This document shows, in pieces, positions 2,698 to 27,542 of a stretch of 59,849 nt of DNA; position 1 is the stretch's first letter; every line of letters starts with the position of its first letter. The notes below the pieces were generated by a model. The model ran no database searches. It saw nothing but the letters and a program-made list of their open reading frames with translations, and was not told the origin of the DNA. A program made the translations under genes and the position numbers. Origin of the DNA: a bacterium. GTDB lineage: Bacteria; UBA6262; WVXT01. The stretch lies in NCBI GenBank assembly GCA_046759165.1, contig JBHIBS010000002.1:1-59849 (forward strand), written 5' to 3'.

Positions 2698-3716
2698 AAA
2701 ACGTCGCTGTACTGGGTGCTGGGAGCTGGGGTATAACGCTTGCTATACTGCTCTTTGAAAAAGGATTTTTCGTCAAAGTCTGGGAATTTGAGAGGGAACA
2801 GGCTGAAATACTTAGGAAGAAGCGCAAGTTAAGATTCTTGCCCTGGGTCGATATTCCCCGGGAAATTGAAATCACTTCCAGCATTTCCCATGCCCTGGAA
2901 GGAGTCCGGTTAGTTGTGATAGCCCTCCCCTCCCATGTAGTTAGAAGAGTAGGGAAAAAGATGGCCGAAGTATCTTTACCAGAAGATATAATAATTGTCA
3001 ACGTATCCAAGGGGCTCGAAGATAAAAGTCTTCTCAGAATGTCCCAAGTCCTATCTGAGGAGTTGCCCGAGAAATTACGAGACCAAATTGTAGTTCTCTC
3101 AGGTCCTTCCCATGCAGAGGAGGTCAGTAGAAAGATTCCCACTACAGTTGTCGTAGCCTCCGTAAACGAAAAGTTGAACTGGGAAGTTCAGAAATTTTTT
3201 TTTACGCCATACTTTCGGGTATATACAAATCCGGACATTATTGGAGTAGAAATGGGTGGAGCATTAAAGAATATTATTGCTATAGCTGTTGGGATTGGCG
3301 ATGGGTTGGGTTTTGGCGATAATAGCAAGGCAGCCTTAATTACCAGAGGGTTAGTAGAAATTACGCGGTTAGGCAAAGCTCTGGGAGCAAAACCTGCAAC
3401 ATTTTCAGGACTTTCCGGAATGGGAGACCTAATTGTGACCTGCACAAGTCGCTACAGTCGGAATAGAAATTTTGGAGAGAAGATCGGTCAGGGCAAAACC
3501 TTAAAGAAAGCACTCTCCGAGATAAAGATGGTTGTCGAGGGAATTCGCACTACAAAAGCAGCCTATCAACTGGCAAAGAACTACAAAGTTTCTATGCCCA
3601 TCACTGAGGAAGTGTATAAAGTTCTTTTTAAGAACAAGAAACCATCCGAGGCAGTGACAGATCTGATGCTTCGAGAAGCAAAGCCAGAGTTAGAAGAAGA
3701 TTTTCTAAAAATGTGA
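2691..3716 (+). CDS. gpsA: NAD(P)H-dependent glycerol-3-phosphate dehydrogenase
   Basis: Rossmann VLGAGSWGITLA and GALKNIIAIAVG. Lies in the conserved plsY-gpsA pairing. Confidence 0.92.
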   Translation: MVKNVAVLGAGSWGITLAILLFEKGFFVKVWEFEREQAEILRKKRKLRFLPWVDIPREIEITSSISHALEGVRLVVIALPSHVVRRVGKKMAEVSLPEDIIIVNVSKGLEDKSLLRMSQVLSEELPEKLRDQIVVLSGPSHAEEVSRKIPTTVVVASVNEKLNWEVQKFFFTPYFRVYTNPDIIGVEMGGALKNIIAIAVGIGDGLGFGDNSKAALITRGLVEITRLGKALGAKPATFSGLSGMGDLIVTCTSRYSRNRNFGEKIGQGKTLKKALSEIKMVVEGIRTTKAAYQLAKNYKVSMPITEEVYKVLFKNKKPSEAVTDLMLREAKPELEEDFLKM

Positions 3717-3744
3717 AGTTATACAATTTTGAAGGAGAAACCAA

Positions 3745-4008
3745 ATGAACAAGTCTGATCTGATTGAAGAGGTTGCCAGGGTCACCTGTGCTAAGAAGGA
3801 AGCGAAGGATGCTGTCAATGCCCTGATTTCTGCTATCAAGCAGGCCTTGGGGAAGAATGACAGAGTAGGAATTTCAGGATTTGGAACTTTCAGTGTCCGG
3901 GCAAGAAAACCAAGGGCGGGTCGGAATCCCAGGACGGGACAGCCAATAAAAATTTCACCAAAAAGGGTAGTCAGGTTTAAGCCGGCCAAGGATATTTTGG
4001 GGAGATAG
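3745..4008 (+). CDS. hup: HU family DNA-binding protein
   Basis: 87 aa, MNKSDLIEEVA...GFGTFSVRARKPRAGRNPRTGQPIKI (HU arm motif). SD GAAGGAGA lies upstream. Confidence 0.9.
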   Translation: MNKSDLIEEVARVTCAKKEAKDAVNALISAIKQALGKNDRVGISGFGTFSVRARKPRAGRNPRTGQPIKISPKRVVRFKPAKDILGR

Positions 4009-4038
4009 TAAAATTCTTAACGGTAAACAAGAACGCCT

Positions 4039-4395
4039 ATGCAAATTCCAGAGAAGAATTTCTTTTCAATAGGAGAGGCGAGCAAAATCACTGGTGTAAA
4101 GCCTTATGTCTTGAGGTACTGGGAATCGGAATTTAGGCTACTCCGTCCAGCCAGAAGGGAAAGCGGGCATCGGAAATATACTCCTAAAGACTTAGAGCTC
4201 ATCGGTGAGATAAAAGAACTGCTTTACGAGAACAAATTCAGCATAGCCGGCGCAAAGAAATATTTACTTGAGGAGAGAAAAAACAAGAAACAGCAGCTGA
4301 GACTCGACCTGGAAAAGGATAGCGCTGCTATAAGCGTCCTAAGGGAGACAAAAAAAACGATAAAAGAAATACTCAAGATGTTAGAAAAAGAATAA
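4039..4395 (+). CDS. MerR family transcriptional regulator
   Basis: N-terminal HTH FSIGEASKITGVKPYVLRYWESEF followed by a coiled-coil tail. Confidence 0.8.
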   Translation: MQIPEKNFFSIGEASKITGVKPYVLRYWESEFRLLRPARRESGHRKYTPKDLELIGEIKELLYENKFSIAGAKKYLLEERKNKKQQLRLDLEKDSAAISVLRETKKTIKEILKMLEKE

Positions 4396-4434
4396 AATGT
4401 GGAGTCCGCTGTTTACATTCGGCAACTGAAGAAT

Positions 4435-4511
4435 CGGGGCGTAGCGCAGTTGGTTAGCGCACCAGCATGGGGGGCTGGGGGTCGGCGGTTCGAGTCCGCT
4501 CGCCCCGACCA
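4435..4511 (+). tRNA. tRNA-Pro (anticodon GGG)
   Basis: Hand-folded cloverleaf: acceptor CGGGGCG/CGCCCCG, D arm GCGC-AGTTGGTTA-GCGC, anticodon arm CCAGC-AUGGGGG-GCTGG, T arm GGCGG-TTCGAGT-CCGCT. CCA is encoded. Confidence 0.93.
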
Positions 4512-4515
4512 AGCC

Positions 4516-4717
4516 AAACTTTGCGAATTGCTGGGGAAAAAATGAAGCTCGCTCAGCCTTGTTTTCGCTCAGCTTCGCTTTTTATAAGTCCTTTTATAAT
4601 AAAGAATTAAGTCAAATGGTTTTTGAAAATCTAAAAATATTTTTTTGTCCAGCAGGCGACGGTTTGTTCCAATTTTTTTCACAAAAGATTTTATTTCATA
4701 AAAATCACATAAGGAGG
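4516..4717 (+). repeat. leader-like repeat, copy 1 (3' module only)
   Basis: Starts AAACTTTGCGAATT 5 nt after the tRNA CCA and ends TCACATAAGGAGG. Aligns along its length with 7836-8026 and 10699-10876. Confidence 0.85.
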
Positions 4718-4786
4718 TAGAATGAAAGCATAGTGCACCTCAAGCAAGATAGTATATAATGGTGAAAAACGGAAAGGAGGTGCGCA

Positions 4787-5841
4787 ATGCAGTACATGGG
4801 AGTGGATAATCACAAGAGGTTCAGCTACATTGTAGTCACAAACAGAAAGGGCAATGTAGTAAAGGAAGACAAGGTACCAAATACCAGAGAGGCGCTGGGT
4901 AGATTTTTAAATAACCCACACCAGGACAGAAACTCTTATGCGGTCTTAGAGACGGGAAGGAACTGGACAGCACAGTAATGTATGATTGGCTGGAAGAAGA
5001 GGTAAAAGACGCGAAGTTAGCTCATCCTCTCAAGGTGAAGGCTATAGCTGAGGCCAGAATAAAGACAGACAAAATTGATGCCAAGACCTTGGCCGATCTA
5101 TTAAGGGCAGATCTAATTCCTGAGGCCTATGTTCCTTCACAAAAGGCAAGAGCGGCCAAAAACATCCTTAGACAGCGTATGTTCTTCGTCAAGGTAAGGA
5201 CTATGGTGAAAAATAGGATTCAAGCTATCCTTGACCACTATCCAGATATCTCTAACCAATGGTCTGGCACGGACCTATTTGGTAAACAAGGCAAGAGCTG
5301 GTTGAATTCTATCACCTTACCCGAACCGGATAATAAACTGCTCAAAGAACAAATCAAATTCTTCGATTCTTTAACTGAACGCATCAAGGCCTCTGATTAT
5401 CTGGTTAGTATACTAGCTAAGACTGATAACAGAGTAGCCCACTTAAGAACCATTCCTGGTATAGGGCTATTCTTCGCCACTTTGATAGCTTATGAGATAG
5501 ATGAGATAAAAAGATTCAGAATAGAGAAAAAGTTCAGAAGTTATATTGGTATTATACCTTCTACCTTTCAGACCTCTGAGACGCTCTATCATGGCCGAAT
5601 CACGAGAGAAGGTAACAAATACATAAGATGGGCCCTTATTGAGGCAGTATGGCCAGCTATGAATAAAGATTATTTCCTAAGAGCCTGCTATAACAAAATA
5701 AGACAGCGTAGAGGTGTAAATATAGCTAAGGTAGCTACAGCAAGACGCTTAGCGACAATAGTTTATCGAGTTCTATCTCAAAGTAGACCCTATATAGTCA
5801 ATTACCCCGGTCGCCCTCATGTTTTCCTGACGAATCCTTAG
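4787..5841 (+). pseudogene. IS110-family (DEDD) transposase, split into two ORFs by a frame change at TAATG (4976-4980)
   Basis: ORF1 (4787-4978) carries GVDNHK and LETGRNW. ORF2 (4978-5841) carries KTDKIDAKTLADL and the Transposase_20-like LRTIPGIGLFFATLIAYEI...GNKYIRWALIEA. The catalytic residues are divided between two frames. Confidence 0.8.
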
Positions 5842-6015
5842 TAATTTGGGATTGCGTCCTTTAAGGAGGTTGGGGGACCGGGGATCGAACTCTATAATGT
5901 GTTCCGATAAGGGGACGAATGGGAGGCTGATCATAAGATCACCCCATAAGCGATAGAAGTAATTAAAAACTTTTTAACCTGCATAGTGTAAAAAATACTT
6001 GCACTATGCTTTCAT
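5842..6015 (+). ncRNA. candidate IS1111-type bridge/seek RNA region (3' non-coding end of the IS)
   Basis: 174 nt of non-coding sequence after the transposase stop, against only about 50 nt before it. Contains hairpins TGATC-ATAA-GATCA and GCATAGTG-N13-CACTATGC. Inferred from family knowledge only. Confidence 0.3.
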
Positions 6016-6026
6016 GGAGGGTAATC

Positions 6027-7316
6027 ATGCAAAGTAAGAACATGAAACGCTGGTTCAAAGGAATTCTTTCTGGGGGAGGCATTGTGGTCTATTTTATCAT
6101 GGCTTTTGAAGTCATGATTATGATTAGTCCCTTTGCTTTCTTTTTCTATTCTGTTTTCAACCCGATTTTTCATCTTCTCGGAAAGTATTCCGCGACCCGG
6201 TGGCTAACCGGATTCTTTCTCCCCCATACGGTCTTTCCACCTGGTGTCTTTCTGCAGGGCATTAGAGTCCTTGGGTCTGTTTTGTTCATTTTAGGTCTCG
6301 GCTTCTTTCTTATTTGTGCGTCACAGGTATACTTGGGCAAGATTCTCAAGCGCGGCGTCGCCACCAAAGGTTTATACCAGGTGATTAGACATCCGCAATA
6401 TTTAGGCCTTGCGATTTGCGGCGCTGGCATGGCGATTCTATGGCCAAGGTTCCTAGTACTGGTGACACTCTCGCTGATGCTGATCCTTTACTACTTTCTA
6501 GCCAGAGACGAGGAACGCCGAATGACGAACGAGTATGGAGATGCCTATCAGAGATATATGGAGCAGACGGGTATGTTCCTTCCTCGATGGATTGAACGAC
6601 CAGTTACTTCTAATGCCCTCAGTAATAGGCTGAAGCCTTACCAATCAATAGTTTTTCCACTCGTTACAGTTGTCACTATTTTAGTCTTGGGCTTTGCCTT
6701 ACGCACATTAACCGTGGCTGAATTACCAGTAAAAATTGAAGGAAACATAGCGGTAGTTTCTATGCTTCCTGAGGATAATGGTTTTCTAAAGGGAGCGGCA
6801 AGCAACTTAAGCGGAGCAGAAGGAAAGTTGCCAAATAATCTCATTCTGAATCAAAATGAAGCATACCTTGGCTATCTCATGCCCGTGGATTACGTTATGC
6901 AGGGAATGATTGCTAATACCGGAAAGCGCTGGCAATTGTACAAGCGGCACCATGCTCTTCAAATGATAAGTGATTGGGTGTTTCACCCGTTCCGTCATCT
7001 TCGACAGCCACCGATGCATACAATGCAACACATGCCTACAGGACACACCATAGCCATGGCTCGCCGGCATCTATGTCCTTTGAACATCAACGACCCCACT
7101 TTGGAATGTAACAATTGCCCATATCGGAGAGTTGTGATAGTGCAAGTGGACAAGAAAAAGAAAAGGCCGTTGACAAAGGCGCTATTGTTCGCCCTTCGTG
7201 CTGAGAGAACAGCAGTTGCTTATCTTGACATGGACGTCCGTTCTGGCAAAATTATTGATGTAGTCAGAGTGCAAGGAAAAACGTTGTGGGAGGAGGTGCC
7301 AACCCCCATTTTTTAA
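6027..7316 (+). CDS. ICMT/PEMT-like membrane methyltransferase fused to an uncharacterised C-terminal domain of about 200 aa
   Basis: GLYQVIRHPQYLG...ARDEERRMTNEYGDAYQRY, multiple TM helices, then one more TM and a His/Cys-containing tail. ATG at 6027 follows GGAGGG (6016-6021); the ORF track starts at 6006, inside the IS inverted repeat. Confidence 0.8.
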   Translation: MQSKNMKRWFKGILSGGGIVVYFIMAFEVMIMISPFAFFFYSVFNPIFHLLGKYSATRWLTGFFLPHTVFPPGVFLQGIRVLGSVLFILGLGFFLICASQVYLGKILKRGVATKGLYQVIRHPQYLGLAICGAGMAILWPRFLVLVTLSLMLILYYFLARDEERRMTNEYGDAYQRYMEQTGMFLPRWIERPVTSNALSNRLKPYQSIVFPLVTVVTILVLGFALRTLTVAELPVKIEGNIAVVSMLPEDNGFLKGAASNLSGAEGKLPNNLILNQNEAYLGYLMPVDYVMQGMIANTGKRWQLYKRHHALQMISDWVFHPFRHLRQPPMHTMQHMPTGHTIAMARRHLCPLNINDPTLECNNCPYRRVVIVQVDKKKKRPLTKALLFALRAERTAVAYLDMDVRSGKIIDVVRVQGKTLWEEVPTPIF

Positions 7317-7517
7317 AGTCAGTATGGAAGCGACTTCGGCTAATTTAAGTTAGGCGCAGTAGGAATTTTTGGAAAGATAGTTTTTTTTGATACCAGTTTA
7401 AAATTGATGGGCAAATTTTGCCCCCATCCAAAATTTGCTCAAAAAGAAAGTGGCGAAAAAAAGCAATTTTGTCTTTTCTTCCTGCTTCGCCCGAGAAAGG
7501 GAAAGCAGGCTCGGAGC

Positions 7518-8026
7518 GCAGGCAACGGAAGACAGTCGTAGGCTGGCTGAAGTCCGAGCACCGAGACTGCTGGGTGTGTGGGGAGAAGATTTGGCTTCTC
7601 TGCCCGACAGGAGCATTTAACTACTTTGATTAAGGGCACAGGCGGACAAGCCCGAGCAAAATAGTTTCTTTTTAAGAATTTTGTTCGGCGCACACTTAAA
7701 AAAATAGAATTTTCCACAATGGCGTGGACGCAAGCCCGAAGTGTTAGCGAAGGGCAGGCCGAATCGCAGGACTAAGCTTTTGTTATTGATTTTTCAAAAT
7801 AGGTTCGCACTTCGTTTAATAACAGCGACCAAATGAAACTTTGCGAATTCTGGGGGAAAAATGAGGTCGATTGAGCCTCGACTTCGCTTTTTATAAAGTC
7901 TTTTATATTCAGGAATTAAATGAAATGGTTTTTCAAAATCTAAAAAGACTTTTCTATCCAGGAGGTGACGGTTCGTTCCAATTTTTTTCACAAAAGATTT
8001 TATTTCATAAAAATCATATAAGGAGG
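7518..8026 (+). repeat. leader-like repeat, copy 2 (5' module 7518-7835 + 3' module 7836-8026)
   Basis: Collinear with 10382-10876. The first 93 nt differ at only 2 positions. Ends in AAGGAGG 4 nt before the ATG at 8031. Confidence 0.9.
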
Positions 8027-8030
8027 AATT

Positions 8031-8588
8031 ATGAAGATATTTAGACTGATTGGCTCTCTAGCTTTCGTGCTCGGGATTTTCACTGCAATATTTGCTGGGA
8101 TACCTTGGTACGTGATCGTTGCCGACGACCCGGTTATACCTTGGTGGCTTAGGATAGCAGTTTTTTTCCTTCTAGGTGGTATCCTACTAGTCCTTCTGAC
8201 AGTGGCTCTCGAACAAAGGAAAAGCAAGACATCAGGAAAGGAGTTTCCGCTTGCTGAGTCCCAACCCGGGGTTTTGCTACTGAATTCTACAGATATCCCT
8301 GGCCGCGAGATCACCGAGATTCTTGATTTAGTCAAAGGACACACTATTTTTGCCATCTGGCTTGGAAAGGACCTCTCTGCCTTGGTGCGACTGGTTCTTG
8401 GCGGTGAGCTGACTGAGTACACGGAGATGATGGGACGGGCTCGCAAGGTAGCTACTGATCGGATGATCGCCCAGGCTGAGGAGCTGGGGGCTGACGCGAT
8501 TATCAACATCCGCTATATGACCACTAGCGTCATCGGCAGTGCCGCTGAACTTTTGGCCTACGGCACAGCCGTCAAGCTGAGCAAATAG
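8031..8588 (+). CDS. YbjQ/UPF0145-domain protein with N-terminal TM helices
   Basis: C-terminal ...TEYTEMMGRARKVATDRMIAQAEELGADAIINIRYMTT...AYGTAVKL, typical of the YbjQ family. Confidence 0.8.
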   Translation: MKIFRLIGSLAFVLGIFTAIFAGIPWYVIVADDPVIPWWLRIAVFFLLGGILLVLLTVALEQRKSKTSGKEFPLAESQPGVLLLNSTDIPGREITEILDLVKGHTIFAIWLGKDLSALVRLVLGGELTEYTEMMGRARKVATDRMIAQAEELGADAIINIRYMTTSVIGSAAELLAYGTAVKLSK

Positions 8589-8769
8589 ATCATCTTACGG
8601 AAGGATATTTGCTGATATGCATGTAATTGCAATCTTATACGGTCCAAAAGGTCAGCTAACATAAGACTGGCGGCTCACTATGTTCGCCCAAACCGCTTCG
8701 CGGCTTCGCCAATCTTAGGAACGTTAGCCGAAACTTTTTGTCGCTTTTCAAAGAAAGCATGAGGATAGT

Positions 8770-10248
8770 ATGAAAATGCTTCTTGTTTATCCAGAGTATC
8801 CAGACACCTTCTGGAGTTTTAAGCACGCCCTAAAATTCATCTCTAAAAAGGCAAGTTTTCCGCCTTTAGGGTTGTTGACTATGGCCGCAATGCTTCCCAA
8901 AGAGTGGGAGAAAAAACTCGCAGATATGACAGTATCTGCATTACCTGATGAAGATATAAAATGGGCTGATTATGTATTTATTAGTGCTATGTCTATTCAA
9001 AGGGAATCTGTGAAAAAGGTAATTGCTAAATGCAAAAGGTTAGGAACTAAGATTGTTGCCGGTGGCCCCCTGTTTACGACTGGATATGAAGATTTCGAGA
9101 ATGTGGATCATCTTGTGCTCAATGAGGCTGAGGTTACACTGCCACCATTTTTGGAAGATTTAAAAGAGGGACACCCTAAACATATCTACACTTCAGATCA
9201 GTGGCCAGATATAGAAAAGACACCTACCCCTCTTTGGGAATTGGTCGATATGAAAAAATATGCCTTTATGTGTATTCAATATTCACGAGGTTGTCCATTT
9301 AATTGTGAATTCTGTGATGTCACCTTACTTTTTGGGCACAAGATGCGAATAAAAACTAAAGACCAGATATTAGCAGAATTAGAGAGCCTATATTCACAGG
9401 CCTGGAGGGGTGGAGTATTTATTGTTGATGACAACTTTATTGGAAATAAGGGAAAGTTAAAAAAGGAAGTTCTCCCTACTATGATTGACTGGATGGAGAA
9501 AAGAAAATATCCTTTCTCCTTTAACACACAGGCATCAATAAATCTCTCTGATGATGAGGAACTTATGAAAATGATGATTCAGGCAAGGTTTGATTCAGTG
9601 TTTATTGGTATCGAAACTCCTGATGAGGAGAGTTTAGCCGAATGCGGTAAGATTCAAAACAAAAACCGTGATTTAATATCTTGTATTAAAAAAATCCAAA
9701 AGTTTGGTTTACAAGTTCAAGGAGGATTTATTGTGGGCTTTGATAGCGATCCACCCTCAATTTTTGAAAGACTAATTGCGTTTATTCAAAAAAGCGGAAT
9801 TGTTACAGCGATGGTCGGATTATTAAATGCTCCTCGTGGCACCAAACTTTACCACCGCCTTGTAAAGGAGAATAGATTGTTGAAGAATATTTCTGGTGAC
9901 AACACAGACCTTTCGACCAACTTTATTCCAAAAATGAACTATAAATTGCTTATCAAGGGCTATAAAAAAATTCTTCGTACAATCTATTCCCCTAAGTATT
10001 ATTATGAACGGGTTCTGACACTTTTCAGAAATTTTGAGCCTTTGGAAAAAAAGAAATTTCAATTTCGTCTTTCCCATCTTGGGGCATTTCTTAAATCTAC
10101 GTGGCTTTTGGGCATAAGAGGAAAAGGAAGAATTTATTATTGGAAACTTCTTTTCTGGACTTTGTTTTGGCGTCAAGAACTTCTTCCATTGGCAGTAACC
10201 TATAGCATTTACGGATTCCATTTTCGTAAGATTTTTAGGGATTATTAA
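8770..10248 (+). CDS. B12-binding radical SAM protein (DUF4070-type C-terminus)
   Basis: N-terminal cobalamin-binding-like fold (LLVYPEYPD...PPLGLL), a CPFNCEFC CxxxCxxC cluster, and a long C-terminal extension. Confidence 0.88.
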   Translation: MKMLLVYPEYPDTFWSFKHALKFISKKASFPPLGLLTMAAMLPKEWEKKLADMTVSALPDEDIKWADYVFISAMSIQRESVKKVIAKCKRLGTKIVAGGPLFTTGYEDFENVDHLVLNEAEVTLPPFLEDLKEGHPKHIYTSDQWPDIEKTPTPLWELVDMKKYAFMCIQYSRGCPFNCEFCDVTLLFGHKMRIKTKDQILAELESLYSQAWRGGVFIVDDNFIGNKGKLKKEVLPTMIDWMEKRKYPFSFNTQASINLSDDEELMKMMIQARFDSVFIGIETPDEESLAECGKIQNKNRDLISCIKKIQKFGLQVQGGFIVGFDSDPPSIFERLIAFIQKSGIVTAMVGLLNAPRGTKLYHRLVKENRLLKNISGDNTDLSTNFIPKMNYKLLIKGYKKILRTIYSPKYYYERVLTLFRNFEPLEKKKFQFRLSHLGAFLKSTWLLGIRGKGRIYYWKLLFWTLFWRQELLPLAVTYSIYGFHFRKIFRDY

Positions 10249-10381
10249 AATATATAATGACAAAAAGCTTCATCTAACATAGCATAAAAGGTTCGTGCCT
10301 AACGCTAATCACCCAAATTTTTGCTTCGCAAAAACTTCTTTTATGCTGAAAGCATTATATGAAGTGGAAATTTTTGATTTT

Positions 10382-10876
10382 GCAGGCAACGGAAGACAGT
10401 CGAAGGCTGGCTGAAGTCCGAGCACCGAGACTGCTGGGTGGGTGGGGAGAAGATTTGGCTTCTCTGCCCGACAGAAGTGTTTGCTTTCTTGATTAAGGGC
10501 AGAGGCGGATGAGCCCGAGCAAAAAATAATGCCTTTTTTAAAAAATTTGTTCGGCACATCCCTAAAAACAGATTTTTTTGCGAGGGCGAGAACGCAAGCC
10601 CTGAGCGGAGCGAAGGGCAAGCCGAATCGCAAGATTAAGTTTTTATTAATGATTTTTCAAAATAGGTTCGCACTTCGTTTAATAACTGCGACCAGATGAA
10701 ACTTTGCGAATTGCTGGGGGAAAAATGAGGTCGATTGAGCCTCACTTTCGCTCGACTTCGCTTGTCATAAATCCTTTTATATTAAGGAATTAAATCAAAA
10801 GGTTTTTCAAAATCTAAAAAGACTTTTCTATCCAGGGGGTGACGGTTCGTTCCAATTTTTTTCACATAGGAGGAGG
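10382..10876 (+). repeat. leader-like repeat, copy 3 (5' module 10382-10698 + 3' module 10699-10876)
   Basis: Same order and orientation as copy 2. Has a 25-nt deletion near the 3' end and ends in AGGAGGAGG before the ATG at 10885. Confidence 0.9.
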
Positions 10877-10884
10877 TGAAACAA

Positions 10885-11136
10885 ATGGAAAAACTAAATG
10901 TAAAAGCATTGACTGTTGGATTAGGCGTTTCATGGGCAGTTTGCATGCTATTTGCTGGTTGGGTGTCCATATTCGGCTGGGGCACAAAATTCGTCGAGGT
11001 AATGGCATCAGTTTATATTGGTTTTAAGCCGACGTTTTTAGGTGGTGTCATTGGCGCAATATGGGGATTTATTGATGGTGCAATCGGTGGAGCAATAATT
11101 GCTTTTGTTTATAATGCTATTGTTAGGAAGAAATAA
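10885..11136 (+). CDS. small Gly-rich two-TM membrane protein
   Basis: 83 aa from the ATG 8 nt after AGGAGG. Two hydrophobic helices with GxxxG-like runs (GGVIGAIWGFIDGAIGGAI). The ORF track starts at GTG 10876. Confidence 0.6.
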   Translation: MEKLNVKALTVGLGVSWAVCMLFAGWVSIFGWGTKFVEVMASVYIGFKPTFLGGVIGAIWGFIDGAIGGAIIAFVYNAIVRKK

Positions 11137-11240
11137 TGGCTCACGTGCCAACCCTTCGGGCTGCGGGTCGTCCCGATGAATCGGGATTGCCCCGATTTTA
11201 AAAGTTTTCATTGTTGCTGACTAAACGGTAGAGGTGAAAT

Positions 11241-11720
11241 ATGGTTAAGACAGGCAAAAGTTGGCGGCAAAAATTGGAGAAAATAGAGGGATTGCCAAAA
11301 ATAGTCAATATCCCAAAAAAGATGGAAAAGAGATTGGGAAAAGGAAAAATGCTCATCCCCAAGCCCTTAGACGTTGATGCACTAATTCGTAAAGTTAAAA
11401 CGGGAAAGCTTGTCACGCAGGAGAAAATTAGACAGAAATTGGCAAAAGATTTCAAAGTTAATGTTACCTGCCCGATAACAACGGGAATTTTTATTCGTAT
11501 TGCTGCTGAAACCGCAGAAGAAGATTTAAGAAATGGAAAGAAACAAATAACGCCTTATTGGCGGGTGATTAAGGGAGACGGTCGTTTAAACGAAAAATTC
11601 CCTGGAGGCGTGAAAGTTCAGGCGGGACGGTTGAAAGAAGAGGGGCATCGTATCCAGCCGAGTGAATACAGAAACCCGCCCCGAGTAAAAGACTTTGGGA
11701 AATACCTACAGAAACTATAG
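11241..11720 (+). CDS. MGMT-family / alkyltransferase-like DNA-binding protein
   Basis: TCPITTGIFIRIAAE and PYWRVIKGDGRL resemble the Cys-less PxxRVV motif of COG3695-type proteins. SD GAGGTGAAA lies upstream. Confidence 0.6.
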   Translation: MVKTGKSWRQKLEKIEGLPKIVNIPKKMEKRLGKGKMLIPKPLDVDALIRKVKTGKLVTQEKIRQKLAKDFKVNVTCPITTGIFIRIAAETAEEDLRNGKKQITPYWRVIKGDGRLNEKFPGGVKVQAGRLKEEGHRIQPSEYRNPPRVKDFGKYLQKL

Positions 11721-11739
11721 TTGGAAATAGGAGTAGTCT

Positions 11740-12423
11740 ATGAGCTATATTGGCTCCTGGAGTGGTGGTAAAGATAGTTGTTTCGCCTGTTATAAGGCAA
11801 TGTGTAGGGGATACAATGTTTCTTATCTGGTAAACTTTATTTCTAAAGAATACAAAAGAGTAAGTTTTCATGGCACAGAAGCTGGATTGATTCAATTACA
11901 AGCCGAAGCATTAGGTATACCCCTATTGCAGAAAGAGACTACCGGGAATGGATATGAGCAAGAATTTAAAGAAGCAGTAGGAAGTCTAATTCCTAATGGC
12001 ATAAGAGGGATGATTTTCGGCGACATTTATTTGCAGGAACACAAGGATTGGGTAGAGAGGGTTTGCAGAGAGTTAGGAATTGAGGCAGTTGAGCTACTCT
12101 GGGGACAAGAACCAGAAAGAATTCTGTTCGACTTTATAGATGCAGGTTTTGAGGCGATAATAGTTAGTGCCAAATCGGAACTATTTGGCAAAGAATGGAT
12201 TGGTCAGAAGGTAGATAAAGAGTTTCTCAAATACCTAAAAGAAAATAGTATTGATATTTGTGGGGAGAATGGTGAATACCATACCCTTGTAGTCGACGGC
12301 CCGATGTTCAAGAAGAAAATAAGAATAACTGAAAGCCAGTCGATTTCACGAGAAGGTTACTGGTTCTTAGATACTCTCCAATATAAATTACAGGATTCTG
12401 CCGAGTCCGCTGTGCTTCATTAG
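11740..12423 (+). CDS. PP-loop ATP-binding protein, Dph6/MJ0570-like (diphthine-ammonia ligase family)
   Basis: N-terminal SWSGGKDS PP-loop; the length and the C-terminal GENGEYHTLV motif fit the family. Confidence 0.75.
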   Translation: MSYIGSWSGGKDSCFACYKAMCRGYNVSYLVNFISKEYKRVSFHGTEAGLIQLQAEALGIPLLQKETTGNGYEQEFKEAVGSLIPNGIRGMIFGDIYLQEHKDWVERVCRELGIEAVELLWGQEPERILFDFIDAGFEAIIVSAKSELFGKEWIGQKVDKEFLKYLKENSIDICGENGEYHTLVVDGPMFKKKIRITESQSISREGYWFLDTLQYKLQDSAESAVLH

Positions 12424-12482
12424 GCTTGTTTGAAATTATACCATACCAGCACTTAAGATTATGCTTTCGGAGGTGAAAAAAG

Positions 12483-12983
12483 ATGGCTGAAGAAAAACAA
12501 CCCAGCGTGATGGAATTGCAAGAAAAAGTGGCACGGTATTTTTGTAACAGACCAAGCAACTTCCCCACCGGACGACCATTCAATTGTTGTGAGAGTGTTC
12601 TCCTAACTTTAGCGGAGTATCTCCACATGGACTCCGAGCTGATTCCCAGGATTGGCACGGCAATAGGTGCGGGTGTGGGCTTAAATGGATTGCTTTGCGG
12701 TTCTGTTTCAAGTGTAGCCATGGCAATAGGCATTAAACATGGAAGAAATAAGTCAGAGGGAAGTCCGCAGCCGGCATGGGGATTAATCGATAAATATATA
12801 ACCTCTTTCAAGGAAAAATTTGGAGCAGTTAACTGCAGGCAACTTACCGGCCTCAACTTAAAGACCCCGGAGGGATTGAAGGAATATTTTACAAGAGTTC
12901 ATGACTATGCATGCGCTGAGAGGTTGAAATTTGCAGTAGAGAAGGCAGTGGAAATCTTGTCAAAGACTCCACCTAAGAAATAA
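12483..12983 (+). CDS. C_GCAxxG_C_C family redox-like protein
   Basis: Cys pattern NCCESVL ... LLCGSVSS ... VNCRQLTG ... YACAE. SD GGAGGTGAAAAA lies upstream. Confidence 0.8.
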   Translation: MAEEKQPSVMELQEKVARYFCNRPSNFPTGRPFNCCESVLLTLAEYLHMDSELIPRIGTAIGAGVGLNGLLCGSVSSVAMAIGIKHGRNKSEGSPQPAWGLIDKYITSFKEKFGAVNCRQLTGLNLKTPEGLKEYFTRVHDYACAERLKFAVEKAVEILSKTPPKK

Positions 12984-13011: not shown

Positions 13012-13527
13012 ATGAGATATTTATGGTTAGTGCCTAGTATATTTTTAATTCATTTTTTTTTCGGGCGACTCGTTTCTATTCCCTACGCTTTGGCCATATT
13101 CCACAAGTGGTATTGGGCAGTCTTTGCGACCTGGCCAATAGATATTATTACTGTTCCTTTCTGGCTTCGTATCTTCGATAAGGTTACAGGCTCAAGAAAT
13201 TTTGTCGCTCGGGAGAAATTATTTATTCGGTATCTCCGAAGAGAAATTGAGAAGTTTACTAAGAAAAAAATCTTTAGGAGAGAGCGAAAACTTCATTCCA
13301 GAATTCTGCGGCGTGCTCAGAGGTGGGGACAGTTTGGGGTTATACTTGTTGCTGCGCTACCATTTGTCGGGGGAGGAATATGGTCTGGCGTTCTTCTGGC
13401 ACGCTTTCTCAGGTTGAAAGTAACAAGGGGATATCTTTTAATTTGTTTGGGCAGTGCTTTGGGTGCTTCATTTATATCCTTGGGTATTCATGGGATTAAA
13501 GAGTTGATCCTTAAACTTTTTGCATAG
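13012..13527 (+). CDS. membrane protein, possibly Sm_multidrug_ex (COG2426)-like
   Basis: TM pair, a very basic loop, then RWGQFGVILVAALPFVGGGIWSGVLLA. Same architecture as 14188-14682 and 26832-27542. Confidence 0.6.
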   Translation: MRYLWLVPSIFLIHFFFGRLVSIPYALAIFHKWYWAVFATWPIDIITVPFWLRIFDKVTGSRNFVAREKLFIRYLRREIEKFTKKKIFRRERKLHSRILRRAQRWGQFGVILVAALPFVGGGIWSGVLLARFLRLKVTRGYLLICLGSALGASFISLGIHGIKELILKLFA

Positions 13528-14187: not shown

Positions 14188-14682
14188 ATGGCTCAGGAAA
14201 TAATTAAATTTTTGAATCGGCTATTCGCCCCAGAGCTTGTAACAGTAATTGTGGCTGCTTTGCCTATTTCAGAGCTTCGCGGGTCCATTCCGCTGGCCCT
14301 GGGTGTTTTTCACTTCTCTATTGAAAAGGCATATTTTTTATCTATAATTGGAAATCTAATTCCAGTGATACCGCTACTTCTTTTTCTTGAATCTCTGTCT
14401 AAATGGCTGAGCATGAGGTTCAACTGGGCTGAGAAATTTTTCAGCTGGTTATTTGCTCGCACTAAGAAAAGAAGTAAGCTTGTAGAGAAGTACGGAGCTA
14501 TCGGTCTTATCTTTTTTGTGGCCATTCCTCTGCCGGTGACAGGAGCGTGGACTGGATGCGTGGCGGCATTTCTTTTTGGCATCAGAAGAGTGTGGGCAAC
14601 TTTGTGTATAGGAAATGGTGTGTTGATTGCTGGAATAATTGTTACTCTTGCCAGTCTCGGTGTAATTGAGATATTCTGGTAA
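14188..14682 (+). CDS. small multidrug export-like membrane protein (COG2426)
   Basis: ISELRGSIPLALG motif and KYGAIGLIFFVAIPLPVTGAWTG. Confidence 0.75.
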   Translation: MAQEIIKFLNRLFAPELVTVIVAALPISELRGSIPLALGVFHFSIEKAYFLSIIGNLIPVIPLLLFLESLSKWLSMRFNWAEKFFSWLFARTKKRSKLVEKYGAIGLIFFVAIPLPVTGAWTGCVAAFLFGIRRVWATLCIGNGVLIAGIIVTLASLGVIEIFW

Positions 14683-14727: not shown

Positions 14728-14802
14728 CGGGGCGTAGCTCAGTTGGTCTAGAGCGCACGGTTCGGGACCGTGAGGTCGGCCGTTCAAATCGGCTCGCCCC
14801 GA
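14728..14802 (+). tRNA. tRNA-Pro (anticodon CGG)
   Basis: Acceptor CGGGGCG/CGCCCCG, anticodon arm CACGG-UUCGGGA-CCGTG, T arm GGCCG-TTCAAAT-CGGCT. CCA is not encoded. Confidence 0.93.
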
Positions 14803-14812
14803 CCCGGAGGCT

Positions 14813-15520
14813 TTGGTCTTGACAGCAAAGCTAAATTTTGCGTATAATAAATTGACCAAAATTATTTTCACAAAGCTCTTTGTTCTAATTCTACTTTCTG
14901 GGTGTGCGCTTTTCCCACCAGGAATTTACCATAGAGTGCGGAAGGGCGAGACTCTCTGGAGAATTTCTAAGGCCTATCAGGTCGACTTAGAGGAGTTGGC
15001 AAGAATAAACCATTTGTCTGACACTACCAGAATTAAAGTGGGCCAATTGATCTTTGTCCCGGGCGCTGAAGAGAGAAAAGATACTTTGGCCTATTCTGGA
15101 AGGCCGACTTCTCCAGCAACAGAAAAAAGAGAGAAAGAACCACCTGAAATCCTCGATTTCTGCTGGCCTCTAAGAGGAAGGATATTGGTCGGATTTGGAA
15201 AACGGAGTGGTAAACGCCACCAGGGCCTGGACATCGAAGGCAGGGAAGGAGCGCCTATAGTGGCTATTTACGACGGTATTGTAACTTATAGTAATAATAA
15301 ACTTCGGGGATATGGGAACATGGTAATAATTAAGCACAATGAGGACTATTCGAGCGTCTACGCTCATAATCGGATAAATCTAGTCAGAGAGGGAGAAAGG
15401 GTAAAGAAAGGACAGGTGATCGCTCAGGTGGGAGCAAGCGGCTGGGCAGATGTACTACACGTACATTTTGAAATAAGAGAGAGGGGTAAGGCGGTCAATC
15501 CTGTGTTCTATTTACCTTAG
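14813..15520 (+). CDS. LysM-domain M23 metallopeptidase lipoprotein (NlpD-like)
   Basis: Lipobox LLSGC, LysM YHRVRKGETLWRISKAYQVDLEELARINHL, and M23 motifs HQGLDI, YAHN, VHFEIR. The start is uncertain; TTG 14852 would give a classic signal peptide. Confidence 0.85.
   Translation: MVLTAKLNFAYNKLTKIIFTKLFVLILLSGCALFPPGIYHRVRKGETLWRISKAYQVDLEELARINHLSDTTRIKVGQLIFVPGAEERKDTLAYSGRPTSPATEKREKEPPEILDFCWPLRGRILVGFGKRSGKRHQGLDIEGREGAPIVAIYDGIVTYSNNKLRGYGNMVIIKHNEDYSSVYAHNRINLVREGERVKKGQVIAQVGASGWADVLHVHFEIRERGKAVNPVFYLP
14819..14848 (+). promoter_or_regulatory. sigma-70-like promoter (TTGACA-N18-TATAAT)
   Basis: Consensus hexamers at 14819-14824 and 14843-14848. It lies inside the 5' end of the 14813 ORF, which argues that the real start of that gene is further downstream. 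Confidence 0.45.
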
Positions 15521-26831: not shown

Positions 26832-27542
26832 ATGAAAAATAAGGATCCTTCTTTTTTTAAAACCACAGAAGGATTTGTCTTTTTGCTTGGCTGTGGCTTT
26901 CTTATAACTGAAATAATCCTTTTTATTCTATTTGGACCCTATATTCCTCAATTAAAAGAGCATTTGCTCCCAGTTATCCTTGCTGACCTGTTAGGAGGAA
27001 GAGGTGCTAGTATCTCCTTAGGACTGCAACTGGGATTGTCCCAATTCCAGGTTGCTTTTATCTCGGTCGTCTTTAACTTGACTTATCTTTTTATTCTTTA
27101 TCCATTGATAATGTATTTTTATGAACAAATAATAGAGCTAAAATTTATTGGAAAAGTATTCAGCCTAACCGAAAGGACCGCTGAGAAACATCAGTCTAAA
27201 ATAGAAAAATGGGGTGCTCTGGGAATAGCAGTTTTTGTCTGGGTTCCTCTGTTTTCTACGGGTTCTCTGGTTGGGGCAATTATCGGAACATTGATCGGTA
27301 TGCGTACAAGTGTTGTAATCTGTGTAGTAATTTTAGCGATGGTTACTAGCGCCGTATCCTGGGCATTTGCTTTTGATCATCTGTTTGAATTCGCTGCAGG
27401 AGCAGGGAAAATCATCCCTTCGATATTCGTTGGTTTAATTTTAGGGATAGTGGTCTTTCACCGCTTGTATCAACTTTACCATTTAGCTAAACAGAAGATA
27501 AAATCAAAAAAGGATTCTCCTTCGGATATTCATGGAAAGTAG
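26832..27542 (+). CDS. multi-TM membrane protein, Sm_multidrug_ex-like
   Basis: KWGALGIAVFVWVPLFSTGSLVGAIIG motif; third paralogue of this architecture in the window. Confidence 0.65.
   Translation: MKNKDPSFFKTTEGFVFLLGCGFLITEIILFILFGPYIPQLKEHLLPVILADLLGGRGASISLGLQLGLSQFQVAFISVVFNLTYLFILYPLIMYFYEQIIELKFIGKVFSLTERTAEKHQSKIEKWGALGIAVFVWVPLFSTGSLVGAIIGTLIGMRTSVVICVVILAMVTSAVSWAFAFDHLFEFAAGAGKIIPSIFVGLILGIVVFHRLYQLYHLAKQKIKSKKDSPSDIHGK

What the first reader, a model, noticed from the sequence alone, without database searches (positions are those of the whole stretch)
4435..10887. Three leader-like direct repeats anchored at tRNA-Pro, each giving its SD and start context to a different cargo gene
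A roughly 200-nt module starts AAACTTTGCGAATT and ends TCA(C/T)ATA(A)GGAGG. It occurs three times in the same orientation: 4516-4717, 7836-8026 and 10699-10876.

Copy 1 begins 5 nt after the CCA of tRNA-Pro(GGG). Copies 2 and 3 carry an extra shared module of about 320 nt upstream (7518-7835, 10382-10698).

By eye most aligned positions are identical (not computed). The differences include a 10-nt indel in copy 2 and a 25-nt deletion near the 3' end of copy 3.

Each copy stops 4-9 nt before the start codon of an unrelated gene:
- the ICMT-like methyltransferase, once the IS is mentally removed;
- the YbjQ-like protein plus B12 radical SAM;
- the small Gly-rich membrane protein.

The repeat therefore supplies the ribosome-binding site and probably the 5' UTR or promoter. 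The intervening segments are bounded like cassettes next to a tRNA gene, yet no integrase is present.

I cannot match this layout to a described element. It could be a shared cis-regulatory leader, a mobile promoter-bearing repeat, or scars of serial insertions at the tRNA.
Basis: partly seen in the sequence, partly recalled or inferred. Interest (0 to 1): 0.7.

Follow-up and report, generated by a model that had tools for sequence, protein, structure and literature searches.

The report
Integrase-gene stubs marking tandem tRNA islands
The three repeats are worn-down ends of mobile DNA islands that inserted one after another beside a proline tRNA gene; each holds the recombination site plus the last ~40 codons of a lost serine-integrase gene, so this is a decayed island array, not a new regulatory leader.

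Summary
There are three direct copies of a ~200-nt module at 82-89% identity. Copies 2 and 3 are preceded by a shared ~320-nt module (85%).

The module is not a leader by origin. On the minus strand each copy matches the C-terminal 40-80 residues of a large serine recombinase (LSR) (tblastn E 4e-20 to 3e-10). In other genomes this LSR sits intact next to tRNA genes and reads towards the tRNA. One case is the same tRNA-Pro(GGG)/gpsA locus of an Omnitrophota MAG.

All homology borders fall on one 6-nt core, CGACCA, which is the tRNA 3' end:
- tRNA|repeat behaves as attL;
- 320-module|repeat behaves as attP;
- a close relative has 320-module|unrelated flank, which behaves as attR.

Close relatives carry different cargo between these arms.

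The window therefore holds a tandem array of three integrase-less island remnants, like the cis-mobilizable islands known at the Dehalococcoides tmRNA gene.

The repeats do end in a Shine-Dalgarno sequence shared by all copies. A promoter or leader role is untested and has no support: no Rfam hit and no fold signal.

In the parent LSR family the crossover lies inside the integrase ORF. I found no paper describing this.

The parts
4435..4511 (+). tRNA-Pro(GGG). Its last 6 nt, CGACCA (4506-4511), are the shared core or crossover region; this is the B arm of an attL-type junction.
   Evidence: ARAGORN and Rfam tRNA at 59.8 bits. Homology among the copies begins at CGACCA.
4506..4717 (+). Repeat copy 1 (arm R1): core, P'-type arm, hairpin spacer and integrase 3' stub, followed by the shared 11 nt ACATAAGGAGG (4707-4717).
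   Evidence: blastn. Aligns to the intact-integrase locus L025 at 83.7% over 276 nt.
4506..4706 (-). Remnant of the large serine recombinase ORF (DFYEIKSFVKKIGTNRRLLDKKIFLDFQKPFDLI...), interrupted by a stop. It then runs across the core into the antisense tRNA (WS-GRADSNRRP).
   Evidence: tblastn with the L013 integrase, aa 444-526, E 4e-20. Antisense translation.
4722..6015 (+). IS110-family insertion sequence with perfect 16-nt terminal inverted repeats ATGAAAGCATAGTGCA. The transposase is split into 4787-4978 and 4978-5841. It is a secondary insertion between R1 and its cargo gene.
   Evidence: Sequence. Pfam DEDD_Tnp_IS110 + Transposase_20. Single copy in the window.
6027..7316 (+). Cargo of unit A: PEMT/ICMT-like membrane methyltransferase with its own GGAGGG SD.
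   Evidence: Pfam PF04191 at 1.3e-9 and PF04140.
7518..7831 (+). 320-nt module, copy A (arm M, the P-type arm), ending in the core CGACCA at 7826-7831. The looser match to the L015 M arm starts near 7384.
   Evidence: blastn 84.7% to copy B. Alignment with L015. Arm consensus ..AAAA[AT]AGGTTCG..GCGACCA shared with L020, L024, L026 and L027.
7772..7831 (-). Antisense of the M-arm tip, encoding the attP-state integrase tail WS-LLLNEVRTYFEKSITKA*.
   Evidence: The same tail ends at least 20 of the 120 family proteins.
7826..8026 (+). Repeat copy 2 (arm R2). The integrase-derived part runs to 8015, followed by the shared ATATAAGGAGG. It includes a terminator-like hairpin at 7862-7886 followed by a T-run.
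   Evidence: tblastn E 1e-13.
8031..10248 (+). Cargo of unit B: YbjQ-like gene (8031-8588) and B12-binding radical SAM/DUF4070 gene (8770-10248).
   Evidence: Pfam. The relative L011 has the YbjQ gene but lacks 8725-11207.
10382..10694 (+). 320-nt module, copy B (arm M), ending in the core at 10689-10694. The antisense of 10635-10694 encodes WS-QLLNEVRTYFEKSLIKT*.
10689..10876 (+). Repeat copy 3 (arm R3). The integrase-derived part runs to about 10866 and has an in-frame stop after PFDLIP. It is 25 nt shorter at its 3' end and is followed by GGAGGAGG.
   Evidence: (tblastn E 3e-10).
10885..11136 (+). Cargo of unit C: 83-aa Gly-rich membrane protein with no family. The right end of unit C is undefined because there is no third M arm.
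   Evidence: Absent from relatives L011 and L015.

Best explanation
**What it is.** The repeats are the integrase-side arms of a family of integrative elements that target the 3' end of tRNA genes using a large serine recombinase (LSR).

**Anatomy of one copy:**
- the 6-nt core CGACCA, which doubles as the tRNA's 3' end;
- about 25 nt of recombinase-binding arm;
- a spacer of roughly 40-65 nt with a hairpin;
- the last 35-45 codons of the LSR gene on the minus strand, now pseudogenised;
- 11 shared nt (A[C/T]ATAAGGAGG) that mark one ancestral deletion which removed the rest of the integrase.

The 320-nt module is the element's other arm. The antisense of its tip encodes the C-terminal tail that the integrase carries in its attP (unintegrated or arm-to-arm) junction state.

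**Layout of the window.** It reads tRNA|R1-cargoA-M|R2-cargoB-M|R3-cargoC. This is an attL-type junction followed by two attP-type junctions, that is, three integrase-less islands stacked in tandem.

**Shown:** homology to the integrase, the common core at every border, and presence/absence and cargo differences in close relatives.

**Inferred:**
- Units are gained and lost either by an integrase supplied in trans or by homologous recombination between the 200-500-nt arms.
- The hairpin plus T-run insulates each unit.
- The cargo genes now use the SD, and perhaps an AT-rich promoter, left at the truncation point.
For: 1. **Integrase homology.** tblastn of a 541-aa LSR (L013; Pfam Resolvase + Recombinase + Zn_ribbon_recom) against the window gives its only significant matches apart from the antisense of tRNA-Pro(CGG) at the three repeats. 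They lie on the minus strand, cover aa 440-526, and score E 4e-20, 1e-13 and 3e-10.
2. **Intact counterpart.** L025 (Omnitrophota GCA_043821025.1) has the full-length gene at the same pgsA-plsY-gpsA-tRNA-Pro(GGG) locus. It aligns to R1, R2 and R3 at 83-87%. Homology stops exactly at ...TTTCATAAAAATC, after which the window copies share A[C/T]ATAAGGAGG.
3. **Opposite-strand coding constraint.** In intact genes the stretch homologous to the repeat varies mostly at third codon positions. Pairwise differences are 92/56/187 at positions 1/2/3.
4. **One core for all junction types.**
   - tRNA|R is seen in the window and in L011.
   - M|R is seen twice in the window and upstream of the integrase in L020, L024, L026 and L027.
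   - M|unrelated flank is seen in L015 and at the far end of L024, where homology ends at GCGACCA(A).
5. **Strain polymorphism at 94-95% flank identity**.
   - L011 reads tRNA-R-YbjQ and then continues at window 11208.
   - L015 reads R-YbjQ-GIY-YIG/Metallophos/AAA_15-M-DUF4145.
6. **Antisense tails.** The antisense of both M|R junctions encodes WS-(Q/L)LLNEVRTYFEKS..*. This is the tail that ends at least 20 of the 120 family integrases; 74 of 120 end in a tRNA-antisense WSG.. tail.
7. **Published precedent for the layout.** Dehalococcoides ssrA islands are tandem islands with a 540-aa serine recombinase on the reverse strand next to attL. Fifteen of them lack an integration module and were read as cis-mobilizable elements (PMC3146451).
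Against: - No LSR homologue was found in the window (tblastn). None of the ORFs scanned with Pfam in about 1-32 kb is a recombinase. I could not search the rest of the genome, so mobility today is unproven.
- Unit C has no M arm, so its right border is undefined.
- I found no empty tRNA-Pro(GGG) site (attB).
- Canonical LSR rules allow attP x attB but not attP x attL. How the tandem order arose is therefore unclear; homologous recombination is the fallback.
- All three copies share the same truncation point and SD, yet they precede unrelated genes. This needs an extra step (spread of one deletion derivative with cargo turnover, or SD-microhomology deletions) that I did not show.
- The tandem order rests on one assembly. 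Independent Logan contigs all break inside the repeats.
Confidence: 0.82

Rival explanations
1. The ~200-nt module is primarily a shared cis-regulatory leader (riboswitch, attenuator or promoter-UTR cassette). It is conserved because it controls the three downstream genes.
For: - Each copy ends in GGAGG just upstream of a start codon.
- Weak sigma-70-like matches TTCACA-16-AAAAAT occur in copies 1 and 2.
- A hairpin plus T-run near the 5' end would make each unit need its own promoter.
Against: - There is no Rfam family at the gathering threshold or at E<=1.
- Fold z-scores are only -0.1 to -1.7.
- Promoter-like hits are no more frequent than in shuffles (18 found against 13.6 +/- 4.4), and the candidate is deleted in copy 3.
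- In distant genomes the conserved part is the coding 3' end of an intact minus-strand gene, and there is no plus-strand gene downstream.
- After removal of the IS, copy 1's SD lies 15 nt from a gene that has its own SD.
Confidence: 0.07
2. Local segmental duplication. One ancestral tRNA-proximal region (R, then M+R) was copied in place by unequal or homologous recombination, and genes were later swapped. No site-specific recombination of separate elements was involved.
For: - All three copies share one integrase truncation point and the same 11 nt after it.
- The L011 repeat is a mosaic: 98% identical to R3 over its first 168 nt, then R2-like. This shows homologous exchange between copies.
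- Unit C lacks an M arm.
Against: - The copies differ by 11-18%, whereas orthologous flanks of relatives differ by about 5%. The copies therefore predate these strains or came from different donors.
- Borders coincide to the nucleotide with the core used by intact elements in unrelated genomes, including an M|flank junction in L015.
- M|R junctions preserve the attP-state integrase tail.
Confidence: 0.1
3. Assembly chimera. Co-existing strains each carry one island (tRNA|R...M|flank), possibly with circular forms, and the assembler chained them into a false tandem array.
For: Independent Logan contigs from three runs all stop inside R or M and never span a junction between units. Relatives with a single unit exist (L011, L015).
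Against: - The copies are only 82-89% identical, so long k-mers should separate them.
- The observed junctions pair the M arm of one unit with the R arm of the next, as expected for a true tandem array rather than for single-unit circles.
- This rival changes only the arrangement, not what the repeats are.
Confidence: 0.1

Closest known systems
Dehalococcoides ssrA-specific genomic islands (ssrA-GIs; McMurdie et al. 2011, PMC3146451)
   Same: - Tandem islands lie downstream of a tRNA-like gene.
- In intact relatives of the window element, as in the ssrA-GIs, a ~540-aa large serine recombinase lies on the reverse strand directly next to attL (the window itself retains only 3' stubs).
- Many islands lack the integration module and were read as cis-mobilizable elements added by accretion.
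   Different: - The target here is tRNA-Pro; other family members sit at tRNA-Gln and tRNA-Val.
- Only 6 nt of the target are repeated, rather than a 20-bp direct repeat.
- The repeated unit here is 200-520 nt of element arms that include an integrase stub.
- No DsiA/ParB/Mom-type integration module was seen next to the integrase in L024, L026 or L027.
- I did not test sequence relatedness to DsiB.
Cis-mobilizable elements (CIMEs) and site-specific accretion of ICE/IME relatives in Streptococcus (reviewed in PMC5704250; concept cited in PMC3146451)
   Same: These are integrase-less elements that keep both att arms. They derive from autonomous elements by deletion and sit in tandem at the parental integration site.
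   Different: - The classic CIMEs depend on tyrosine integrases, which can use the identical core in attL or attR for accretion. An LSR is not expected to do this.
- No autonomous partner element is present in the window.
- Mobilisation has not been shown.
Tycheposon islands of Prochlorococcus (Hackl et al., bioRxiv 10.1101/2020.12.28.424599)
   Same: tRNA-adjacent hypervariable islands are built by successive integrations. Fragmented integrases and partial tRNAs are left behind as older elements are pushed inwards.
   Different: Tycheposons mostly encode tyrosine recombinases (910 of 937) and leave partial tRNAs. Here the scars are LSR 3' ends and long element arms, with only CGACCA of the tRNA repeated.
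Integron gene-cassette arrays
   Same: A row of same-direction, unrelated small cargo units is separated by a recurring recombination-site-bearing repeat. No recombinase lies inside the units.
   Different: - There is no IntI tyrosine recombinase, attI or Pc.
- The repeat is 520 nt of LSR attP-type arms, not a 60-140-nt attC hairpin.
- The array is anchored at a tRNA.
SSV1-type archaeal integrases and mycobacteriophage integration-dependent immunity
   Same: The attachment site lies inside a coding sequence of the element, so integration rewrites a protein. In SSV1 the int gene is split. In the BPs/Brujita phages the repressor loses its C-terminal tag.
   Different: - Those systems use tyrosine integrases.
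- Here the crossover (TGG TCG, encoding Trp-Ser) sits about 17-19 codons before the stop of a serine integrase, so only its C-terminal tail is swapped.
- This applies to the parent family. In the window it survives only as pseudogene stubs.

Membership tests
tRNA-targeting integrative element / genomic island (att-bounded) | Lies at the 3' end of a tRNA gene, and the element restores the tRNA end. | tested here: met
   R1 starts at CGACCA, the last 6 nt of tRNA-Pro(GGG). The unoccupied tRNA-Pro(CGG) in the window ends ...CCCCGACCCGG, with no encoded CCA.
tRNA-targeting integrative element / genomic island (att-bounded) | Has a cognate site-specific recombinase gene next to one att site. | tested here: not met
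   Only 3' stubs with stops or frameshifts remain. An intact gene is present at the same locus in L025 and at tRNAs in L013, L016, L024, L026 and L001.
tRNA-targeting integrative element / genomic island (att-bounded) | Shows the junction quartet attL, attR, attP and attB sharing one crossover core. | tested here: inconclusive
   tRNA|R, M|R and M|flank all share CGACCA. No empty tRNA-Pro(GGG)|flank site was found.
tRNA-targeting integrative element / genomic island (att-bounded) | Shows presence/absence or cargo polymorphism between close relatives at the arm borders. | tested here: met
   L011 and L015 compared with the window at 94-95% flank identity.
Cis-mobilizable element (CIME) | Keeps both att arms but has no integrase or transfer genes, and derives from an autonomous element by deletion. 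| tested here: met
   Units A and B are bounded by R and M arms. The integrase is reduced to its last ~40 codons, with one shared deletion endpoint. Cargo Pfam hits show no mobility genes except the secondary IS.
Cis-mobilizable element (CIME) | Is excised or transferred together with, or by, a related autonomous element. | not testable with these tools
   This needs read-level junction data or experiments. No autonomous partner is present in the window.
Large serine recombinase (integrase) gene | Has the Resolvase catalytic domain, Recombinase domain and zinc ribbon. | tested here: not met
   In the window only aa ~440 to the end are represented. The parent protein from L013 has all three domains. 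Its best solved relatives are SPbeta YokA and A118 integrase.
Integron cassette array | Has an IntI tyrosine recombinase with attI/Pc, and attC sites (imperfect palindromes with a GTTRRRY core) after each cassette. | tested here: not met
   No such gene is found among the ORFs of 1-16 kb. The recurring unit is 520 nt, is homologous to LSR arms, and shows no significant fold.
Riboswitch / structured cis-regulatory RNA leader | Matches a known RNA family or shows a conserved, covarying secondary structure on the sense strand upstream of the regulated genes. | tested here: not met
   Rfam gave only the tRNA and two chance-level hits. Fold z-scores are no stronger than -1.7. Conservation is explained by opposite-strand coding. 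Covariation could not be tested because the sense-strand copies are too few and too similar.
MITE / IS-derived mobile repeat | Has terminal inverted repeats and target-site duplications, and occurs as many dispersed copies. | tested here: not met
   No inverted-repeat pair bounding the repeat copies is among those reported for 3500-12500. Only three copies exist, all in one array. Homologues elsewhere lie only at tRNAs or M arms.

The most novel reading that the evidence does not exclude
The repeats may be the visible remains of an undescribed, cross-phylum family of tRNA-targeting serine-integrase elements with three unusual properties.

1. **The crossover lies inside the integrase ORF.** The core CGACCA is the antisense of the Trp-Ser codons TGG TCG. 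Integration or excision therefore swaps the enzyme's C-terminal tail. One state carries a conserved 17-19-aa tail, QLLNEVRTYFE.. . The other carries an antisense-tRNA tail. The swap could act as a built-in directionality or stability switch.
2. **The integrase gene is flanked by two inverted attP-type junctions.**
3. **Integrase-less R-cargo-M units may be minicassettes mobilised in trans.** They would stack at the tRNA like an integron array. The truncated integrase end would then serve as terminator, promoter and SD for whatever cargo follows.
Probability: 0.2. Interest if true: 0.75.

Novelty: new variant of a known kind. Interest (0 to 1): 0.42.

Why it matters
For annotating this window, the result turns an apparent "orphan leader repeat" into an ordinary and useful landmark. 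Positions 4506-11200 are a hypervariable island hotspot. Its cargo genes (PEMT-like, YbjQ-like plus radical SAM, small membrane protein) are accessory and horizontally acquired.

More broadly, the analysis exposes a very large serine-integrase family:
- More than 7,500 database proteins match it.
- The best 120 hits are 66-87% identical to the L013 integrase; the few that carry source names come from Omnitrophota, Patescibacteria, Acidobacteriota, Elusimicrobia and Marinimicrobia.
- It carries restriction-modification and defence-type cargo into tRNA genes of poorly studied phyla.

If the tail-swap and double-attP architecture is functional, it would be a new way for a serine integrase to sense its own integration state. 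It would also offer compact tRNA-specific integrases as candidate tools.

Tried and rejected
- **Rfam.** Scans at the gathering threshold (whole window) and at E<=1 (4400-11200) found only the tRNA plus two chance-level hits.
- **Folding.** Single-strand folds of the 5' halves of all copies, on both strands, gave no significant stability.
- **Promoter/terminator scan.** Counts were not above shuffles. One good hairpin plus T-run appears in copy 2 only.
- **Genome-contig scan** with the 21-nt core returned mostly chance hits. It did return two distant family members, L001 and L005.
- **Logan look-ups** of four window proteins returned only short contigs from the same organism that break at the repeats. 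This gave no strain comparison and no IS-free PEMT junction.
- **Far end of the L013/L027 element.** It was not reached within the contig, so I could not compare an occupied with an empty tRNA-Pro(CGG) site.
- **Viral collections.** There was no relative of the integrase and no copy of the truncation junction.
- **Literature.** Four searches found the Dehalococcoides and tycheposon analogues. None described this integrase family or a serine-integrase ORF that spans attP.
- **Integron and MITE readings** were considered and rejected; see the membership rows.
- **Codon-position test on the M-arm tail** showed only a mild third-position excess (208/167/256). Protein-level selection on that tail is suggested but not proven.

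Full report
**1.

The window (42.6% G+C) has tRNA-Pro(GGG) at 4435-4511. It carries three same-strand copies of a ~200-nt module at 4516-4717, 7836-8026 and 10699-10866/76.
- Pairwise blastn identities are 82.3%, 84.0% and 88.7%, with E 1e-47 to 1e-60.
- No other copy exists in the 59.8 kb.
- Copies 2 and 3 are preceded by a second shared module, 7518-7835 and 10382-10698, at 84.7% over 321 nt.

Two corrections matter.
- The homology does not begin 5 nt after the tRNA. It begins at CGACCA: 4506-4511 (the last six bases of the tRNA), 7826-7831 and 10689-10694.
- The IS110-family element spans 4722-6015. It has perfect 16-nt terminal inverted repeats and a split transposase. With the IS removed, copy 1's GGAGG lies 15 nt from the PEMT/ICMT-like start codon, and that gene has its own GGAGGG.

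**2. What the repeat is**

I scanned metagenome contigs for the most conserved 21-mer, GGTTYGTTCCAATTTTTTTCA. The scan returned close relatives of the window (L011, L012, L015). It also returned distant loci in which the motif lies about 150 nt downstream of a tRNA 3' end (tRNA-Pro, -Gln, -Val).

In those loci the motif is coding sequence on the opposite strand.
- L013 has a 541-aa ORF that reads towards the tRNA.
- Its Pfam domains are Resolvase, Recombinase and Zn_ribbon_recom, so it is a large serine recombinase (LSR).
- Its nearest solved relatives are the SPbeta and A118 integrases.

tblastn of this protein against the window gives its only significant matches apart from the antisense of tRNA-Pro(CGG) at the three repeats. 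They are on the minus strand, cover aa 440-526, and score E 4e-20, 1e-13 and 3e-10. There is no full-length recombinase elsewhere in the window.

The best intact counterpart is L025, an Omnitrophota MAG (GCA_043821025.1).
- It has the same pgsA-plsY-gpsA-tRNA-Pro(GGG) synteny as the window.
- The complete integrase abuts the tRNA.
- Its tRNA-proximal 200-276 nt align with R1-R3 at 83-87%, whereas gpsA is only 69% identical.
- Homology ends exactly at ...TTTCATAAAAATC. The intact genes then continue coding, while all window copies and L011/L015 share A[C/T]ATAAGGAGG.

In intact genes this stretch varies mainly at third codon positions. Pairwise differences are 92/56/187 at positions 1/2/3. Opposite-strand protein coding therefore explains its conservation. 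The window stubs carry stops or a frameshift.

**3. What the 320-nt module is, and the junction logic**

I call the arms T (tRNA), R (repeat), M (320-nt module) and F (unrelated flank).
- The window has T|R1, M|R2 and M|R3.
- In L015, a relative with 94-95% identical flanks, the M arm is followed by unrelated DNA. Homology stops at ...GCGACCAA.
- Unrelated full-length elements have the same M-type arm tip (AAAA[AT]AGGTTCG...GCGACCA) joined to an R-type arm (L020/L027, L024, L026). L024 also has an M|F junction at the far end of its cargo.

Three of the four junction types expected for site-specific integration are thus seen, all with one core. T|R corresponds to attL, M|R to attP and M|F to attR. 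I did not find the empty attB for tRNA-Pro(GGG).

The unoccupied tRNA-Pro(CGG) in the window ends ...CCCCGACCCGG. Its orthologues in L013 and L024 are occupied by the element.

**4. The locus is a hotspot**

- L011 reads tRNA-R-YbjQ and then jumps to window 11208. It lacks the PEMT gene, the radical SAM gene, both M arms and the small membrane protein.
- L015 has R-YbjQ followed by GIY-YIG, metallophosphatase and AAA_15 genes, then M and a DUF4145 gene.
- The L011 repeat is 98% identical to R3 over its first 168 nt and R2-like afterwards. Homologous exchange between copies therefore occurs.
- The copies within the window differ more (11-18%) than orthologous flanks do between strains (~5%). 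The three units are not recent in-place duplicates.

**5. Best explanation**

Positions 4506-11200 are a tandem array of three integrase-less derivatives of this LSR element: unit A 4506-7831, unit B 7826-10694, and unit C from 10689 with an undefined right end.

The full-length integrated element reads T|R - integrase (reverse) - R'|M' - cargo - M|F. A deletion from integrase codon ~443 into the cargo yields exactly R*-cargo-M.

All copies share that endpoint and the next 11 nt, so the deletion probably happened once. The derivative then diversified in cargo.

How the units were stacked is inferred, not shown. Canonical LSR chemistry pairs attP with attB, not with attL. Homologous recombination through the 200-500-nt arms, or integration of multimers, is at least as likely as true site-specific accretion.

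The published parallel is the Dehalococcoides ssrA islands (PMC3146451).
- They are tandem islands.
- A 540-aa serine recombinase lies on the reverse strand next to attL.
- Fifteen islands lack an integration module and were read as cis-mobilizable elements.

Tycheposon islands likewise accumulate fragmented integrases.

**6. The leader idea**

At sequence level the repeat does end in the SD used by the YbjQ-like gene (4-nt spacing) and precedes the small membrane gene by 8 nt. A hairpin plus T-run near its 5' end (7862-7886) could terminate tRNA or upstream transcripts. That would force each unit to start transcription within the AT-rich integrase stub.

Nothing positive supports regulation, however.
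- There is no Rfam family.
- Fold z-scores range from -0.1 to -1.7.
- Promoter-like matches are at shuffle level. The one candidate, TTCACA-16-AAAAAT, is simply the antisense of the conserved DFYEIK.FVKK codons and is missing in copy 3.

I rate co-option as possible and origin as a leader as unlikely.

**7. Family-level observations outside the window**

*(a) Size and spread.* The LSR family is very large (more than 7,500 hits at E<1e-20). The best 120 hits are 66-87% identical to the L013 integrase. The few that carry source names come from Omnitrophota, Patescibacteria, Acidobacteriota, Elusimicrobia and Marinimicrobia. Cargo includes restriction-modification and other defence-type genes.

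*(b) The core is coding.* It is the antisense of TGG TCG, the Trp-Ser codons inside the integrase ORF. Of the 120 best homologues:
- 74 end in WSG..., the antisense of a tRNA;
- at least 20 (about 28 with a looser motif) end in WS-QLLN(A/E)(A/V)RT(Y/F/H)FE... and stop 17-19 residues later.

The window's two M|R junctions encode the same tail. Recombination therefore swaps the integrase C-terminus. Codon-position evidence for selection on the tail is only mild.

*(c) Inverted repeats.*
- The integrase is flanked by 94-158-nt inverted repeats of 94-100% identity in L001, L013/L020/L027, L016, L017, L024 and L026; in L025 the contig ends 72 nt upstream of the integrase start, so no upstream copy could be seen.
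- L024's cargo is flanked by inverted M arms at 99.5% identity.
- L029 (8.1 kb, no tRNA) ends in inverted copies of its own internal arms, as expected for a circle with two inverted attP-type junctions.
- In all eight integrated loci the integrase 3' end faces the tRNA.

I found no paper describing this architecture in the held library. That is not proof of novelty.

**8. Verdict**

The finding is real and its third suggested reading is right. As a window feature it is a decayed tandem island array at a tRNA, a new variant of a known kind. Moderate interest comes mainly from the parent integrase family.

Noticed in passing
Loci L013, L024, L025, L026, L029, L030; proteins P0001-P0120; window 7772-7831 and 10635-10694 (minus strand): In the parent LSR family the crossover core is the Trp-Ser codon pair inside the integrase ORF. 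Of 120 homologues, 74 end in an antisense-tRNA tail (WSG...). At least 20 end in a conserved 17-19-aa tail (WS-QLLNEVRTYFE...). Integration state therefore rewrites the integrase C-terminus.
   Followed up: partly
L024 6773-6959 / 9559-9745 and 9739-9896 / 11370-11527; L026 9709-9866 / 11370-11527; L020 1245-1365 / 2857-2977; L029 ends: The integrase gene is flanked by 94-158-nt inverted repeats of 94-100% identity. In L024 the cargo is flanked by 187-nt inverted M arms at 99.5%. Contig L029 looks like an ~8.3-kb circle with two inverted attP-type junctions. In all 8 integrated loci the integrase 3' end faces the tRNA.
   Followed up: partly
L015 126-690 (also L012 344-1007): In close relatives a separate ~535-660-nt insert sits inside the same tRNA-Pro(GGG). 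In L015 it carries one 153-aa membrane ORF with no family and is bounded by a 38-nt direct duplication of the tRNA 3' half. This tRNA therefore appears to be used by a second, different integration system.
   Followed up: partly
window 4722-6015: An IS110-family element with perfect 16-nt terminal inverted repeats is inserted just after the repeat's SD (4 nt downstream). Its transposase is split at a TAATG overlap (4787-4978 / 4978-5841), so it is either inactivated or frameshift-dependent. It is single-copy in the window.
   Followed up: partly
L018 1955-2313 and 287-508: This locus carries a scrambled integrase pseudogene. The reverse-strand 3' end is fused to a forward-strand internal segment at a short sequence that reads SFWGVVS on one strand and AHHAEKL on the other. 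A central gene is flanked by inverted M arms, each abutting an integrase stub.
   Followed up: no
window 14728-14830: tRNA-Pro(CGG) has no encoded CCA (...CCCCGACCCGG) and is unoccupied here. Its orthologue downstream of pcm and a PF06695 gene carries the full LSR element in L013/L027. The orthologue in L024 is also occupied.
   Followed up: partly
window 13012-13527, 14188-14682, 26832-27542: The window has three paralogous PF06695 (Sm_multidrug_ex) genes. Two of them lie upstream of a tRNA gene: one immediately upstream of tRNA-Pro(CGG), the other ~280 nt upstream of tRNA-Arg(CCT).
   Followed up: no
window 7518-7620, 10382-10485 (and M arms of L024, L027, L029): The distal part of the M arm is a G+C-rich (~60%) stretch with hairpin-forming runs, set in a 42% G+C genome. 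It is loosely conserved in the family and partly deleted in L015. Its function is unknown; it could be an accessory-factor site or a terminator.
   Followed up: no
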